Assembly (NCBI RefSeq): GCF_009914755.1
Contig: NC_060935.1
Origin: the human T2T-CHM13v2.0 reference genome, Homo sapiens
Strand: one strand, 5' to 3'
DNA: 64,000 nucleotides
The translations under genes and the position numbers were made by a program. Positions within the stretch are counted from its first letter, which is position 1. Each line of letters starts with the position of its first letter. Positions 11,888 through 17,332 of the stretch are shown one piece after another. A model generated the notes under the pieces. The model was not told the DNA's origin, made no database searches, and saw nothing but the letters and a program-made list of their open reading frames with translations.

Positions 11888-14038
11888 TTAAGCTGGACTC
11901 TGCCCCTGCTCTTGGTAAGTGGTGTCTCCAGTTGCTGCAGTGCCTGGAACCAAACTCTGCCTTTCCTCAATTGCCTGATATGCTTTCTTCTTGAACTTCC
12001 GGGTGCCGTAGATGGCCAAGGTGATAACAACAGCCAGAATGGTGGTGACCCCCACTGTGACCCCAGCTGCAGCCCCTCCTGACAGACCACCACCATCCCC
12101 ATGGATGACATTCATGGCCCTCCGCAGCTCTATCGGTTCTCCCAGCCTCCACTGGTGGGTCTGGGAGTCTTTAATCCAGGATCTCGCATTCTCAGAATTG
12201 GTCACTATGACAGTATTGGTGGCAGCCTGACTCATGAGGGGTGGCCGGGTGAAAGGTGGGAGCCTGGCAGGGGGCAGGGACCCTCCTGTGAAGAGCCCGG
12301 ATTTGACGCAATAGGACACTTGGCATCCATCGCTGATGAGGGCTGGGTGCTGGCTGAAGCCCCCGGGGCACTTTTTCAGAGACGGTGCCCCTAAATCTCT
12401 GGATATAGCAGGATCTACCAGGGGGTTCCCAACTGTGCAGCTAAAGAACCCGCCAAAGGGGACCGCAAACCTGCTTCCCAACTCATAGTCCTGAGAAACA
12501 CATACCTTGAGGTTTTCAAAGAGTCTCAGTGGAAAGTAGCCGGCTGGGCATGACTGTGCATTTGTCATGGGGTTTATGCTCTTGCTGCTGAAGAGGCCCC
12601 CAAAAAGCAGTCCTGAGTTTTCAGGTACTTGGCTGCTGGTCACACACCAAAAAGCCCTAAATTCAGCTTTTGCCACCTGGAACACATCTTCACACACGGT
12701 CTTGCAGAAGACGAGGAGAGTGCACTTTCGATGACACTCCAGGTGGTTGTAACCCTCCTCGTGGATCTGGGATAACAGGTGCACCGGGGAGTAGCCAGAG
12801 GGGCAGGAGAAATCACCAGTGAGTGGATTCTTCTGCTCCAACTTTTGGCAGAGGAGGACATCCCTATTCCCTGAGAGCTGAGTGCATTCCTGATAAACCC
12901 CACCGAAAGAGAAGTTGGTCATTTTCCCCTCGCAGGAGCCATCATCCGTGTTGGCCTGAAAATTGAAGTTGGGAGAATTGAGATCTGTGCAGCCAGGGTA
13001 GGTGTTGAATGTATAATAGCGCTTCACAGCAGTTTCCACTGTCTTTGACACCTTCTTCACCAGGGGGCCTGGCAAGTCAGGTAGCATGTTGGGGTTGATG
13101 AAGAAATGCAGCGGCAGGCCAGAGCGGTCGATGGCCACCAGGTGGTTGGTGATACCCTGCTGCCAGGCCTGGAGGGTGATGCCTGGGTAAAAAGGAACCC
13201 CTCCAATGCTCTGCACCCTGGAGTTGGTTCGGTTTGAGAGGTAGCTCTTGGTGAGGACATTCTGCGAGGTATAGTTTTCCTCAAATTTGAAGTTCACGGT
13301 GTTTTGAAAGGCAAGTCCAGCAGAGGCGGTCACGGCACTACGACTGCTCTGGCTGTCTTGGAGGAAGGAGGCCCTGAGGTGGTCCTCCTGAATAAGAGCA
13401 GCCCCAGCGTCGACACTGGTGGTGACGTGGGTGCCATAGTTGAGCACCAGGAGTTCTGCCAGGTAGGTGGCCATCCTCGTCTGGTTGTTCTCTAGACGGT
13501 CAGAGATGTCAAGGAGTTCCTTCCTAAAACCTGAGCTTAGCTCTAAAGTTGGGTTGATTTTGACTGTGTAGACGAGGTTTCTTACCTGAACTCGGGTAGT
13601 TATAGCTTGGTCCTTCACTTGGAGGGTCTTCATCCTCTGGAACTCAGTGGAAAACTTGCCATTGACTTTGGAAAAAAGAGAGAGTTCTGTGTTGATGGAG
13701 TAGGAGGTGCTACTCTGGTAATTTGCCCAGGATTCCAGGATTTCTGAGTTCATCTCCAGGTTGCTCTGTTTCTGGGGAATGGTGAAGATTTCATCAGGGA
13801 TGATATACTGTCCATCCTCTGTTGTCCTGCAGTTGGAGTAAGTCAATTCCATAACTCGTCCCATGTCCACATTCCGCAGATTGTCCCAGCCCCCTCCAGG
13901 TAGGACTTCCAGGACAGGTAGTTTCAAGGCATTCTTGCATTTTTGAACTCCAACTTCGTCCATCTCTCCCGAAGGCTTGCCTGATTTAGCCCATGCTGCC
14001 GCTGCCCAGAAGAGGATGGTGGCCCTGAAGTTGTTCAT
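11888..14038 (-). CDS. MPEG1: Macrophage-expressed gene 1 / perforin-2 (716 aa): signal peptide, MACPF domain, Cys-rich EGF-like and P2 regions, C-terminal TM helix, cytosolic tail
   Basis: Single uninterrupted 716-aa ORF; Kozak gccATGa; MACPF signature YGTHV...G; TM segment [19 protein letters not shown] followed by basic RKFKKK. Confidence 0.98.
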
Positions 14039-14099
14039 GGCTCAGACAGCCCCAGCCACTCACCAGCCCTACACAGCGGCCAGCAAGCTTTGGGCAAAC

Positions 14100-14870
14100 T
14101 AAGATGGAGAAAACAGAAGCAGATGATGAAGCGGAAAACTCATGAGTTCTCTAAAAGCTACAAGTTCCTCTTTAAGCTAATTTAATGACAAAATGGGGAA
14201 ACGAGAGTTGGTTGGAATATTAAAGACCATCAGGTCTTTGAAGAATTTATGCCGTACTAAACATGCAAACACACCCCTACATGCCTAACAGGTAGCTATC
14301 CTAATTTTTCCCCCAGCTCTGGCTGGTTACTCTGCTGCAGGGGTGTGCACTTAGAAAAAAATCCCGACCCCACACCCTACTGCTTCCTCCACCAGAAAGT
14401 TTGGCTTTGCTTTTTGCTCATTCTCTTGGACTTGATGTTTCATATTTTCCCTGACTGCTGTCTCTTGGGACTCCATTATCAGTTTTCTTTTACTATAAAT
14501 GCAGAGGCAAATGACCACACCACCCTTACTGAAACACCCTGGCTCCACCATACCTATGCAAGCTGTTAGTCAAGGCCAACCCTGGGTTTCCTCTTTGCCT
14601 GAGGGTGGAGGCTGTTTCCACAAAAGAAAGGAGTGAAACTCTTGGACACTTGTCCTGTGGGTTTCACTGTTATGAACCATAGCAATTCTGTCTTTGGGGA
14701 TGGCATTGTCTGGAGCACAGCTGACAGGGCCTGAAGAGGATTCGGTTGCAATATGCTGGGAAACCCCAATTTGCATTGTCCTAAGCATTCAAAGCGAGGG
14801 CAAGGAACTCCTACACTGTGTTGTTTTCATTCAGATAGAAATGTTCAAGACAAAACCACACTATTATCTA
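14100..14870 (-). promoter_or_regulatory. MPEG1 proximal promoter with PU.1/ETS, IRF-like and RUNX motifs
   Basis: AAAGAGGAACTT on the - strand at 14162-14173 (PU.1 box); GCGGAA at 14131-14136; further GAGGAA on - near 14383-14389 and 14586-14594; GAGTGAAACT near 14631-14640; AACCACA near 14854-14860. Confidence 0.65.
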
Positions 14871-15567
14871 GATTTTGATTTATCAACAGCAGACAGGGGC
14901 CAAGGAACATATGTGTATGTGTACACACATTTATATATCCTCTGTGTGTGTGCATTTTGTATGAAGTTGGTACCTGTTATACCTTTAATTTTTTGTTCCA
15001 TTGCTAAGTGTGTGTAATCAGTTTAGGTGGATAAAAAAGAATGTGGCTCTTCACTACCCAATATTTTTTCTAAAAGCAAAAATTCATTTGCTATATCATT
15101 AGAAGAATATAATTACATGAGTTTCTTTTCAAGTTCCAATGCCAGCTCTATTAGAGCCCATAATTTAAAACAATGGTGACAGGTTTGATTGAAACCCAAC
15201 TCTGTTAATTCTTTGGGACAATTAGGCTATGTCTTAGTATGCTTAGTGGTAGCCAGGGAATCCAGAGGACTTAGTGAAGCTCCCAGTTGCATCCTTAACA
15301 TTCCCAAGATTATACCATGAACTAGATACAGTACTGAGACTGAAAAAGTCATGTTGCAATTCACAGGTATCACTACACCATCACCTGTATGCATCCTGGA
15401 AGGAAGGTTCCAAGGAGTTGAATTCCTCTGTTGGTTATTAATGCAGCAAAGAAGTGTTTTTAGAAAGAATGAGGCTAGTTATCTTGCTTCCCAGGCTGGG
15501 CTTCACCAGTTATTATCAAAACCATGATGGTGTTCTATAAATCTAGAAATACTGCATTCCGGGTATA

Positions 15568-15872
15568 TTTTTTTTTCCAAGACAGGGTCTTGCTTATTGC
15601 CCAGGCTTGAGTGCAGTAGCTATTCACAGGCATGGTCCCACTACTAATCAGCATAGGAGTTTTGACCTGCTCCATTTCCAACCTGGACCCGTTTAGCCCT
15701 CCTTAGGCAACCTGGTGATTTGCTCCAAGGAGGCCACCATATTGATGCTGAGCTTAGTGCAGACACCCAACTGGCATAGCACACTACAGCCCAGAACTCA
15801 TGGATTCAAGCAATCCTCCCACATCAGCTTCCCAGGAATCTGGGACTGCAGTCATGCACCACCACACCTGGC
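15568..15872 (-). pseudogene. 7SL (SRP RNA) processed pseudogene
   Basis: Alu-like ends flank the SRP S-domain (gacctgctcc, ccctccttaggcaacctgg, ccatattgatgc); poly-T on +; degenerate TSD cattccgggtata / cattctggttcta (10/13). Confidence 0.9.
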
Positions 15873-16504
15873 CATTCTGGTTCTATTTGTGCCACAGTTA
15901 TCATGCTTCTGGGAAGTGACACCAGCCACCTAAGAGGGATTAATTTATGAACCAGTGCCTAGTCTGTATTTGGCTAAAGAACCAAATCTTTGCACAGGAT
16001 GTTCTAGTTAATTTATAAATCAGTTAGCCATAAATTTATACCTCAGCAGCATGATCCCAGAATTAGAAAAATGAGAGTTGAATGCCCTTGAGTACTTCCA
16101 ATAAGTCTGTTGAAATACCTACATACTTCTCTTCAAACTATTTCTGGGATGGTTCATCAAAATTAGAATACTCTCACACTGCTTTGGAGACAAGCTGACA
16201 ATTTGTTACCCTCTGCTTTCTCTTTAGTAGACCCTGTTGAGAGCTCACTCTCCTGAAATGAGAATACAAGCAAGGTTAATACAGACAATTCTATATTCAG
16301 GTGTTCCTATGTCTCCAGACGTCTAGTCACTGTATTTTTTATTCTATAGACTTTGTCTTCATTTTATCATAGGAAAAAAAAATTGAAAATAGCAGAAAGA
16401 GCCAACAACGGTAAAATTACATTGTACCCATAAGACAAAATATTGTATAGCCATCACAATTATTTAAAACTATTTTAATAACATGAGAAATTCTTATGCC
16501 ATAA

Positions 16505-17118
16505 TGTTACTGGAAAGGGTTCCCAATGCAGACCTCAAGAGAGAGTTCTTGGACTTTGTGCAAGAAGGACCAGGGCAAGTCCACAGAGTAAGGTGAAAGT
16601 AAGTTTATTAGAGAAGTAAAGAAACAAAAGAATGGCTACTCCATAGGCAGAGCAGAAGTATGTGCTGCTTGATTAAGGATACTTATCATTATTTCTTAAT
16701 TATATGCTAAACAAGGGGTGGATTAATCATGAGTTTTCTGGGAAAGAGGTGGGCAATTCCCAGAACTAAGGGTTCCTCTCCTTTTTAGACTATACAGGGT
16801 AACTTCTGGAAATTGGCAGTCATGGCACTGGTGGAAACATCTTTTAGCATGCGAATGCACTACAATTAGTGTATAATGAACAATGAGGATGACCAGAGTT
16901 CACTCTTGTCGCCATCTTAGTTTTGGTGGGTTTTGGCTGCCTTCTTTACTGCATGCTCTTTTATCAGAAAGATCTTTGTGATCTGTATCTGTATCTTATG
17001 CCAATCTTCTATCTCATCCCATGACTTAGAATACTTAACCCTCTGGGAATGCAGCCCAGCCTTCTTTTACCCAGCCCCTATTCGAGATGGAGTTATTCTG
17101 ATTCAAATATCTCTGACA
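16505..17118 (-). mobile_element. MER41 (MER41B-like) ERV1 solo LTR
   Basis: The - strand starts TGTCAGAG..TTTGAA..AGA..ACTCCATCT.GAATAGGGGCTGGGTAAAA (MER41 5' end); TG..CA termini; 4-bp TSD ataa. Confidence 0.88.
16736..16765. promoter_or_regulatory. Tandem GAS (STAT) sites TTCTGGGAA (16736-16744) and TTCCCAGAA (16757-16765) within MER41
   Basis: Both match TTCNNNGAA; they are mutual reverse complements, 21 bp start-to-start. Confidence 0.75.
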
Positions 17119-17332
17119 ATAATGTTATGAAAAAAAAGAATGATAAACATTCAGCATGACCCCAACTATGTACATAACTAGAGGGATGTACGCCAATGCA
17201 TAGACAGTAATTACATCTGGTTGAGAGGTTTTTCTAAATTATTTTAATTTTTTCCTCTTTTCTGTGTTTTTTGAGTTTTCAACAATGAGCATGTATTTAT
17301 TAACTCGAGAAATTTGTATTCAGAGCCTATTA

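What the first reader, a model, noticed from the sequence alone, without database searches (positions are those of the whole stretch)
16505..17118. MER41 LTR with two intact GAS sites ~2.5 kb upstream of MPEG1: candidate retrovirus-derived interferon enhancer for perforin-2
Seen: a complete MER41 solo LTR (TSD ataa) carrying TTCTGGGAA and TTCCCAGAA 21 bp apart (two helical turns, compatible with cooperative binding of STAT dimers), and a YY1-type CGCCATCTT near 16910. Known: MER41B copies with this tandem GAS act as IFN-gamma/STAT1 enhancers (e.g. near AIM2), and MPEG1 is interferon-inducible. Inference: this primate-specific insertion may supply or boost IFN induction of MPEG1. Both sites look like CpG-decayed versions (TTCCGGGAA to TTCTGGGAA) that still match the GAS consensus.
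Basis: partly seen in the sequence, partly recalled or inferred. Interest (0 to 1): 0.8.

Follow-up and report, generated by a model that had tools for sequence, protein, structure and literature searches.

The report
MER41B-type solo LTR upstream of MPEG1
An ordinary relic of an ancient primate retrovirus sits 2.4 kb upstream of the perforin-2 gene and still carries its family's paired interferon-response sites, so it could help switch the gene on, but nothing here shows that it does.

Summary
Window 16505-17118 is a 614-bp solo LTR (TG...CA ends, ATAA target duplication). It carries TTCTGGGAA and TTCCCAGAA 21 bp apart and CGCCATCTT at 16910.

It belongs to a dispersed family: 3566 first-look candidates in the genome, and 40 scored copies at 76-79% identity over the full length. 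It is of the GAS-bearing, MER41B-type class. It matches a published MER41B-derived 26-mer at 25 of 26 bases. It carries the 43-bp segment that the GAS-less class lacks.

The paired sites are a family feature, not a local one. 13 of 30 similar copies keep both cores, and 103 genomic copies keep the strict 30-bp module. Both sites have lost a central CpG, so each is one base off the published STAT1 optimum.

The copy is more decayed than its relatives (branch 0.133 against 0.089). Its module is not unusually conserved.

MPEG1 is interferon-inducible in mouse as well, and mouse has no MER41.

Binding and enhancer function could not be tested. No held paper links MER41 with MPEG1.

Verdict: a plausible but unproven candidate of a well-known kind. 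Interest is modest.

The parts
16501..16504 (.). Left target-site duplication ATAA
   Evidence: The same 4 bases follow the LTR. 9 of 29 other copies have an exact 4-bp flank repeat and 9 more have one mismatch.
16505..17118 (+). Solo LTR of the MER41 family, GAS-bearing (MER41B-type) class, 614 bp, TG...CA. Its sense direction points away from MPEG1.
   Evidence: Full-length matches to 40 scored genomic copies at 76-79% identity, out of 3566 first-look candidates. Alignment with 29 copies. Profile match 1-635, E 1.5e-186, and the only such element in the window. The target duplication follows directly, so no internal proviral sequence is present.
16697..16722 (-). Published MER41B-derived signature 26-mer (motif M2 of STAT1-bound HeLa sites)
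   Evidence: 25 of 26 bases match, with 0 expected by chance. The motif and its attribution to MER41B come from PMC2897888 Table 1.
16736..16744 (+). GAS 1, TTCTGGGAA (CpG-decayed form; sister copies that keep the CpG read TTCCGGGAA)
   Evidence: The same 9-mer occurs in the probable AIM2-upstream element.
16745..16756 (+). 12-bp G-rich spacer AGAGGTGGGCAA. The A at 16747 is the minority state (6 of 30 copies A, 22 G).
   Evidence: That this spacer is the MAZ site reported next to the STAT1 motif in MER41.AIM2 (PMC11046693) is my inference; the figure is not held.
16757..16765 (+). GAS 2, TTCCCAGAA (CpG-decayed form; sister copies that keep the CpG read TTCCCGGAA)
16910..16918 (+). CGCCATCTT, matching a YY1-type core (GCCATNTT, recalled motif). 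It is a family feature.
   Evidence: GCCATCTT is intact in 12 of 30 copies, and 7 of 30 read CGCCATCTT.
17119..17122 (.). Right target-site duplication ATAA
14128..14137 (+). Context: ISRE-like GAAGCGGAAA, one mismatch from GAAANNGAAA, 28-37 bp upstream of the MPEG1 start. It is a possible LTR-independent interferon element.
   Evidence: Any function is inference only.
15907..15915 (+). Context: lone TTCTGGGAA between the 7SL pseudogene and the LTR
   Evidence: A single site is at chance level.

Best explanation
The element is a solo LTR of the primate-specific MER41 endogenous retrovirus family, of the class that carries the family's STAT1 module (MER41B-type). It inserted with a 4-bp duplication 2.4 kb upstream of MPEG1 and is oriented away from the gene. 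This part is shown. Its two GAS-type sites, 21 bp apart, were inherited from the LTR. Each later lost its central CpG by methyl-C decay. Because that CpG lies in the free middle of TTCN3GAA, the loose consensus survives, while each site moves one base off the STAT1 optimum TTCC[C/G]GGAA. This too is shown by comparing copies. The copy is therefore sequence-competent for interferon-gamma-induced STAT1 binding, possibly as paired dimers. That is shown for the family in HeLa cells but not for this copy. My best reading is that it is one of the many such copies that are either unoccupied or occupied without being required. It would be a passenger or at most a minor, redundant booster of MPEG1, whose interferon inducibility is older than the insertion. 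The functional half of this statement is inference. The identity half I hold at about 0.95.
For: Identity. Full-length homology to a family with 3566 first-look candidates. TG...CA ends and ATAA/ATAA flanks, with 4-bp flank repeats in 9 of 29 sister copies. A 25-of-26 match to the MER41B-derived M2 motif. The genome holds a long class (219 matches, typically 61 bp between anchors) and a short class (572 matches, typically 18 bp), which differ by 43 bp. That matches the 43-bp deletion reported to separate MER41A from the STAT1-motif-bearing MER41B (review PMC9963469, passages). This copy is of the long class. The MER41B consensus is reported to have two GAS 21 bp centre to centre (PMC2897888 section 8).

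Ordinariness of the module. 22 of 30 copies keep GAS1, 19 of 30 keep GAS2 and 13 of 30 keep both. 103 genomic places match the strict 30-bp module against 0 for the reversed control.

No sign of special conservation. The module's agreement with sister copies is 0.849 against 0.813 for the whole LTR, and 161 of 631 sliding windows score as high or higher. The copy as a whole is more diverged than its relatives: star-tree branch 0.133 against 0.089.

Low prior for occupancy. [quoted passage not shown] 292 called sites lie in MER41, out of about 7,197 annotated copies (PMC2897888 sections 7, 8, 18).

MPEG1 inducibility without MER41. Perforin-2 is induced by type I and II interferon in mouse cell lines and MEFs as well as in human lines (PMC4626811, passages). 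MER41 is reported as primate-specific and absent from rodents (PMC11046693, PMC2897888). An ISRE-like GAAGCGGAAA sits 28-37 bp upstream of the start.
Against: Several results keep the enhancer reading alive. (1) The probable MER41.AIM2 element is a MER41-type fragment (E 3.1e-19) lying 3.8 kb upstream of the PYD exon of the only minus-strand PYD+HIN gene. It carries the same decayed TTCTGGGAA as its first site, 21 bp before TTCCCGGAA. That element is reported as necessary for AIM2 induction (review), so the decayed first site is compatible with function. (2) The LTR holds the only tandem GAS in 64 kb. The 2.6 kb between it and the MPEG1 start has no exact GAAANNGAAA and only one lone GAS. (3) MPEG1 is listed as IFN-inducible in HeLa, HUVEC, HEK293 and other human lines. 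MER41B shows about 20-fold induced STAT1 tags in HeLa. (4) Although the copy is more decayed overall, its 30-bp module has no change outside the CpG positions and one polymorphic spacer base. (5) I could not consult any binding data, so 'unoccupied' rests on priors alone.
Confidence: 0.6

Rival explanations
1. The LTR is a genuine interferon-inducible enhancer. After IFN-gamma, STAT1 dimers, perhaps paired through the 21-bp tandem, bind 16736-16765 and raise MPEG1 transcription from 2.6 kb away, as reported for MER41.AIM2.
For: It belongs to the subfamily class with strongly induced STAT1 binding (PMC2897888 Table 2). Both GAS cores and the spacer are kept. GAS1 is identical to that of the probable AIM2 element. 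It is the nearest element of its kind to an IFN-inducible gene. No exact ISRE core lies in the intervening 2.6 kb. Reported MER41 enhancers act from 220 bp to about 20 kb. SECTM1 has a comparable MER41 with tandem GAS 5 kb upstream.
Against: There are no binding, chromatin or deletion data for this copy. Both sites are sub-optimal. In the probable AIM2 element the second site keeps its CpG. 13 of 30 similar copies have the same two cores. Occupancy of predicted sites is low. Mouse Mpeg1 is inducible without MER41. Schmid and Bucher found no MER41 upstream of 10 genes with shared human-mouse IFN-gamma induction. RefSeq's functional-element list in the hub table has an enhancer at 14077-14276 but none on the LTR. 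MPEG1 was absent from every supplement I could search, though those tables may be cut or not gene-indexed.
Confidence: 0.2
2. The LTR is a regulatory element, but not through interferon. It would be a constitutive myeloid or trophoblast enhancer bound by other factors that recognise MER41 (GATA2/3, MSX2, SRF and others).
For: [quoted passage not shown] The LTR has three WGATAR matches. MPEG1 is constitutively expressed in phagocytes and inducible in Jeg-3 choriocarcinoma cells.
Against: WGATAR matches are frequent by chance. Neither MPEG1, DTX4 nor my recalled coordinates appear in the 6 searchable supplement files of that paper; file 1 was not searched. There are no chromatin data.
Confidence: 0.1
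3. The LTR acts on another gene, such as DTX4 about 44 kb away, or on an unannotated transcript started by the LTR itself.
For: MER41 contacts have a reported median range of about 163 kb (PMC6292174). The LTR's own sense direction points away from MPEG1.
Against: MPEG1 is by far the nearest start. The hub table lists no transcript between 14100 and 56589. Nothing was found in supplements for DTX4.
Confidence: 0.03

Closest known systems
MER41.AIM2, the MER41B-derived IFN-gamma enhancer 220 bp upstream of AIM2 (Chuong, Elde, Feschotte 2016. The paper is not held; it is known here from the review PMC9963469 and PMC11046693, passages).
   Same: Both are MER41-type LTR sequence with two GAS 21 bp apart. 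The first site is the identical 9-mer TTCTGGGAA. The spacer is G-rich and ends in GGGCAA. The orientation relative to the gene is the same (LTR +, gene -). Both sit upstream of an interferon-inducible innate-immunity gene.
   Different: The probable AIM2 element is a truncated, far more diverged fragment (profile positions 206-499; only 68-90 bp align by BLAST at 73-76%). The MPEG1 copy is end-to-end. The AIM2 second site keeps its CpG (TTCCCGGAA), whereas here it reads TTCCCAGAA. The AIM2 element is promoter-proximal, whereas this one is 2.6 kb out. AIM2 function is shown by deletion; here nothing is shown. That L032:1339-1368 is MER41.AIM2 is my inference from gene structure, not from an annotation.
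The MER41B subfamily as a whole: STAT1-bound LTRs in IFN-gamma-treated HeLa (Schmid and Bucher 2010, PMC2897888, sections 6-9, 18 and 26 read)
   Same: Tandem GAS at 21 bp, the adjacent M2 signature 26-mer, and a location within 10 kb upstream of a gene, as for 1,183 of 7,197 MER41 copies.
   Different: Membership of the bound subset (292 called sites in MER41) is unknown for this copy.
MER41A-type copies (the class lacking the STAT1 module)
   Same: The same LTR family and the same flanking anchors ATTCATG ... CTCCCCTTTT.
   Different: They lack the 43-bp segment holding both GAS (572 short-class against 219 long-class exact-anchor matches). The window copy has the segment.
The SECTM1 upstream MER41 (5 kb from the start, two high-scoring tandem GAS; PMC2897888 section 18)
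   Same: A MER41 with tandem GAS a few kb upstream of an IFN-gamma-regulated gene.
   Different: I did not examine the SECTM1 copy's sequence.

Membership tests
MER41 LTR family (ERV1-type solo LTR) | End-to-end sequence homology to the dispersed LTR family | tested here: met
   40 scored copies at 76-79% identity, mostly over 1-614, from 3566 candidates. Profile match 1-635, E 1.5e-186.
MER41 LTR family (ERV1-type solo LTR) | LTR termini TG...CA with a short (4-bp) target-site duplication and no internal proviral sequence (solo) | tested here: met
   TGTTACTG...CTCTGACA flanked by ATAA/ATAA. Exact 4-bp repeats in 9 of 29 sister copies and one mismatch in 9 more.
MER41 LTR family (ERV1-type solo LTR) | A link to the published family name | tested here: met
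   25 of 26 match at 16697-16722 to motif M2, which Schmid and Bucher attribute to MER41B. No RepeatMasker or Dfam call was available.
MER41B subfamily (GAS-bearing) | Presence of the 43-bp segment absent from MER41A, carrying two GAS 21 bp apart | tested here: met
   The window copy has the segment. The long and short genomic classes differ by 43 bp.
MER41B subfamily (GAS-bearing) | Formal subfamily assignment (B rather than E, which is also listed with 21-bp spacing) | not testable with these tools
   No Dfam or RepeatMasker library is held. PMC2897888 Table 2 lists both MER41B (1069 kb) and MER41E (135 kb) with 21-bp tandems. B is favoured by the M2 match and by abundance.
Interferon-inducible MER41 enhancers (functional class) | GAS motifs matching TTCN3GAA | tested here: met
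   Each site is one base off the optimum.
Interferon-inducible MER41 enhancers (functional class) | IFN-induced STAT1 (and/or IRF1) occupancy | not testable with these tools
   No ChIP data are held.
Interferon-inducible MER41 enhancers (functional class) | Induced H3K27ac or accessibility | not testable with these tools
   No such data are held. The RefSeq functional-element list in the hub table has no entry on the LTR.
Interferon-inducible MER41 enhancers (functional class) | The neighbouring gene is interferon-stimulated | tested here: met
   From the literature only: PMC4626811 Tables 1-2 and supplement legends (passages), and review PMC7937864.
Interferon-inducible MER41 enhancers (functional class) | Loss of the element lowers induction of the gene | not tested
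   This needs a bench experiment.

The most novel reading that the evidence does not exclude
Regulatory turnover at perforin-2. In humans and other anthropoids the IFN-gamma/STAT1 arm of MPEG1 induction in non-myeloid cells would run mainly through this retroviral LTR, which holds the only tandem GAS in 64 kb, with no exact ISRE core in the 2.6 kb between it and the start. It would have replaced or overlaid whatever element serves mouse Mpeg1. Deleting the LTR would then blunt IFN-gamma-induced perforin-2 and the killing of intracellular bacteria in epithelial or endothelial cells.
Probability: 0.12. Interest if true: 0.55.

Novelty: new member of a known kind. Interest (0 to 1): 0.3.

Why it matters
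Perforin-2 is reported as needed for killing intracellular bacteria in interferon-treated non-immune cells (PMC4626811). If a primate-only LTR tunes its induction, human and mouse models of perforin-2 regulation would differ. The locus would also join AIM2, APOL1, IFI6 and SECTM1 as a case of retroviral wiring of innate immunity. If it does not, as I think more likely, the finding is a routine example of a MER41B copy that merely lies near an interferon-stimulated gene. It is also a reminder that a preserved TTCN3GAA pair in this family is common: 13 of 30 copies.

Tried and rejected
1. Chuong et al. 2016 was asked for by PMC id and by DOI and is not held. What I say of it comes from reviews and citing papers.

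3. I searched supplements for MPEG1. All returned 0 occurrences:
- PMC6292174, 1 file.
- PMC10069462, 6 files with file 1 not searched; DTX4 and recalled hg38/hg19 coordinate prefixes were also tried there.
- PMC10203045, 8 files.
- PMC12583588, 9 files.
- PMC5747502, 11 files.
- PMC10688052, 8 files. This paper turned out to be about LINEs.
- PMC11046693 has only an unreadable PDF.
These blanks are weak evidence. Files may be cut, may list coordinates rather than genes, and my coordinates were recalled.

4. File S2 of PMC2897888 (4446 STAT1 sites) would have been the most direct look-up.

5. I looked in the PMC11046693 methods for the MER41.AIM2 sequence. Only unrelated primers are given.

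6. Testing whether the GAS module is specially conserved in this copy gave a negative result: 161 of 631 windows score as high or higher.

7. An ISRE in the LTR was rejected. There is no GAAANNGAAA even with one mismatch.

8. A second MER41 copy in the window was rejected. BLAST and the profile search find only the element itself.

9. Technical note. A BLAST run with -evalue 1e-100 returned only 15 of the 30 loci. That alignment was discarded and redone with all 30.

10. Presence or absence across primates could not be tested, because no primate genomes are held.

Full report
WHAT IS THERE

Window 16505-17118 reads TGTTACTG...CTCTGACA and is bracketed by ATAA on both sides. TTCTGGGAA lies at 16736-16744 and TTCCCAGAA at 16757-16765, 21 bp start to start. 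CGCCATCTT lies at 16910-16918. MPEG1 starts at 14100 on the minus strand (hub table). The LTR edge is therefore 2405 bp upstream and the first GAS about 2.64 kb upstream.

A single TTCNNNGAA is unremarkable: 36 in the window against 26.6 +/- 5.0 in shuffles. Two of them at this spacing occur once in the window against 0.01 expected.

WHAT IT IS

The stretch is one copy of a large dispersed family. The own-genome search gave 3566 first-look candidates. All 40 scored were 76-79% identical, and most covered positions 1-614.

I aligned the window copy with the 29 other copies that were fetched.
- Their lengths are 613-636 bp, and nearly all share the TG...CA ends.
- 9 of 29 have an exact 4-bp flank repeat and 9 more have one mismatch. 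The ATAA duplication is therefore the family's integration signature.
- The duplication follows the LTR directly, so this is a solo LTR.

The family name rests on print, because no repeat library is held.
- Schmid and Bucher (PMC2897888, sections 6 and 8 read) report a 26-base motif from STAT1-bound HeLa sites that 'resembles' MER41B. It matches 16697-16722 at 25 of 26 bases.
- They also state that the MER41B consensus has two GAS 21 bp apart centre to centre.
- A review (PMC9963469, passages) relays that MER41B carries the STAT1 motif and MER41A lacks it through a 43-bp deletion.
- I reproduced that split in this genome. Exact-anchor matches fall into a long class (219 matches, typically 61 bp) and a short class (572 matches, typically 18 bp), which differ by 43 bp. 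The window copy is of the long class.
- B against E (E is also listed with a 21-bp tandem) cannot be settled without Dfam.

THE TWO SITES COMPARED ACROSS COPIES

At site 1 the 30 copies read mostly TTCCAGGAA (9), TTCTGGGAA (8) and TTCAGGGAA (3). TTCCGGGAA survives in 1.

At site 2 they read TTCCCAGAA (11) and TTCCTGGAA (5). TTCCCGGAA survives in 1.

Because the CpG sits in the unconstrained centre, its decay never breaks TTCN3GAA. It does move each site one base away from the published STAT1 consensus (TTTCCCGGAA; GATTTCCGGGAAATG).

Keeping both cores is common.
- 22 of 30 copies keep site 1, 19 of 30 keep site 2 and 13 of 30 keep both.
- Genome-wide, 103 places match the strict 30-bp module with its spacer, against 0 for the reversed control.
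- By my hand count of the 100 rows listed there, 5 carry exactly the window's 30-mer. Only 9 rows at site 1 and 12 rows at site 2 still hold the CpG.

IS THIS COPY SPECIAL?

It is not, by sequence.
- Its mean identity to the others is 0.813, the lowest of the set (the others are 0.827-0.857).
- On a star tree its branch is 0.133 against 0.089 for a typical copy. At 2.2e-9 per site per year (a recalled rate) that is roughly 60 against 40 My, in the range of the published 45-60 My. The set was chosen by similarity to this copy, which may bias the comparison.
- It has lost 15 bp after 16818, where 28 of 29 others keep at least 12 bases, and about 12 bp elsewhere.
- The GAS module agrees with sister copies slightly better than the LTR average (0.849 against 0.813), but 161 of 631 sliding windows do as well or better.

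COMPARISON WITH THE VALIDATED CASE

In the HIN-200 cluster, the only gene on the minus strand has HIN exons at C1:158,200,581-158,203,319 and a PYD exon at 158,210,303-512. From recalled gene structure this should be AIM2.

In the 30 kb upstream, a single stretch resembles the window LTR.
- By BLAST it is 68-90 bp at 73-76%.
- By profile search it is 280 bp, profile positions 206-499, E 3.1e-19.
- It reads TTCTGGGAA, then 12 bases, then TTCCCGGAA (L032:1339-1368), about 3.8 kb upstream of the PYD exon.

If this is MER41.AIM2 (reported 220 bp upstream of the AIM2 start and required for its induction), then the decayed first site is compatible with function. The difference lies in the second site, which there keeps its CpG.

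WHAT BEARS ON FUNCTION

In favour:
- MER41B shows about 20-fold induced STAT1 tags in HeLa.
- MPEG1 is listed as inducible in HeLa, HUVEC, HEK293 and other lines (PMC4626811).
- The 2.6 kb between the LTR and the start has no exact GAAANNGAAA and one lone GAS, at 15907.

Against:
- Occupancy of predicted sites is low: under 4% above PWM 30 and under 18% for the best sites.
- Only 292 called sites lie in MER41, out of about 7,197 copies, and 1,183 of those copies lie within 10 kb upstream of genes.
- Mouse Mpeg1 is induced by type I and II interferon although MER41 is absent from rodents. The LTR therefore cannot be the origin of inducibility.
- Schmid and Bucher found no MER41 upstream of 10 genes with shared human-mouse IFN-gamma induction.
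- An ISRE-like GAAGCGGAAA sits 28-37 bp upstream of the start and could carry the response. This last point is inference.
- The hub's RefSeq functional-element list has no entry on the LTR.

LITERATURE

No held paper contains both 'MER41' and 'MPEG1'. None of the 15 listed papers holding at least three of six related terms mentions MPEG1. The MPEG1/STAT1/enhancer/ChIP-seq search returned nothing on a human MPEG1 enhancer, judging by titles and abstract openings. The supplement searches were blank, and the decisive site list was out of reach.

VERDICT

The element is a typical, somewhat worn MER41B-type solo LTR whose paired GAS are inherited and weakened. That it enhances MPEG1 is possible: I put inducible STAT1 binding in some cell type at about 0.3 and a measurable effect on MPEG1 at about 0.15-0.2. 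It is unproven, and the kind of element is well known. A single look at public STAT1 ChIP-seq would settle most of the question.

Noticed in passing
window 14128-14137: GAAGCGGAAA, one mismatch from the ISRE core, lies 28-37 bp upstream of the MPEG1 start. An AGAGGAACT ETS/PU.1-like stretch lies nearby in the core promoter. It is a possible LTR-independent route for interferon or IRF input.
   Followed up: partly
window 15907-15915: A lone TTCTGGGAA, the same 9-mer as GAS1, lies 35 bp beyond the end of the annotated 7SL pseudogene. A single site is at chance level.
   Followed up: partly
window 14758-14767: GGGAAACCCC matches the NF-kB-type pattern GGGRNNYYCC about 660 bp upstream of the MPEG1 start.
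   Followed up: no
whole window: Exact GAAANNGAAA occurs 13 times against 5.5 +/- 2.1 in shuffles, and 0 of 100 shuffles reach 13. All 13 lie outside 13900-17118. Several look like A-rich repeat tails.
   Followed up: no
L012:2170-2722, L018:2368-2608, L029:2745-2973: Three of the fetched loci hold a second, more diverged MER41-like stretch beside the main copy. These could be nested or tandem LTRs, or the two ends of a provirus remnant.
   Followed up: no
L032:1321-1600 (G000:C1:158,214,321-158,214,600): The MER41-type fragment upstream of the probable AIM2 gene is truncated (profile positions 206-499). It is much more diverged than the 30 full-length copies, yet it keeps the tandem GAS.
   Followed up: partly
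window 16910-16918: The CpG in CGCCATCTT survives in this copy (7 of 30 copies keep it; 8 read CACCATCTT, which breaks the GCCAT core), while both GAS CpGs are lost. The LTR holds only 3 CpG in all.
   Followed up: partly
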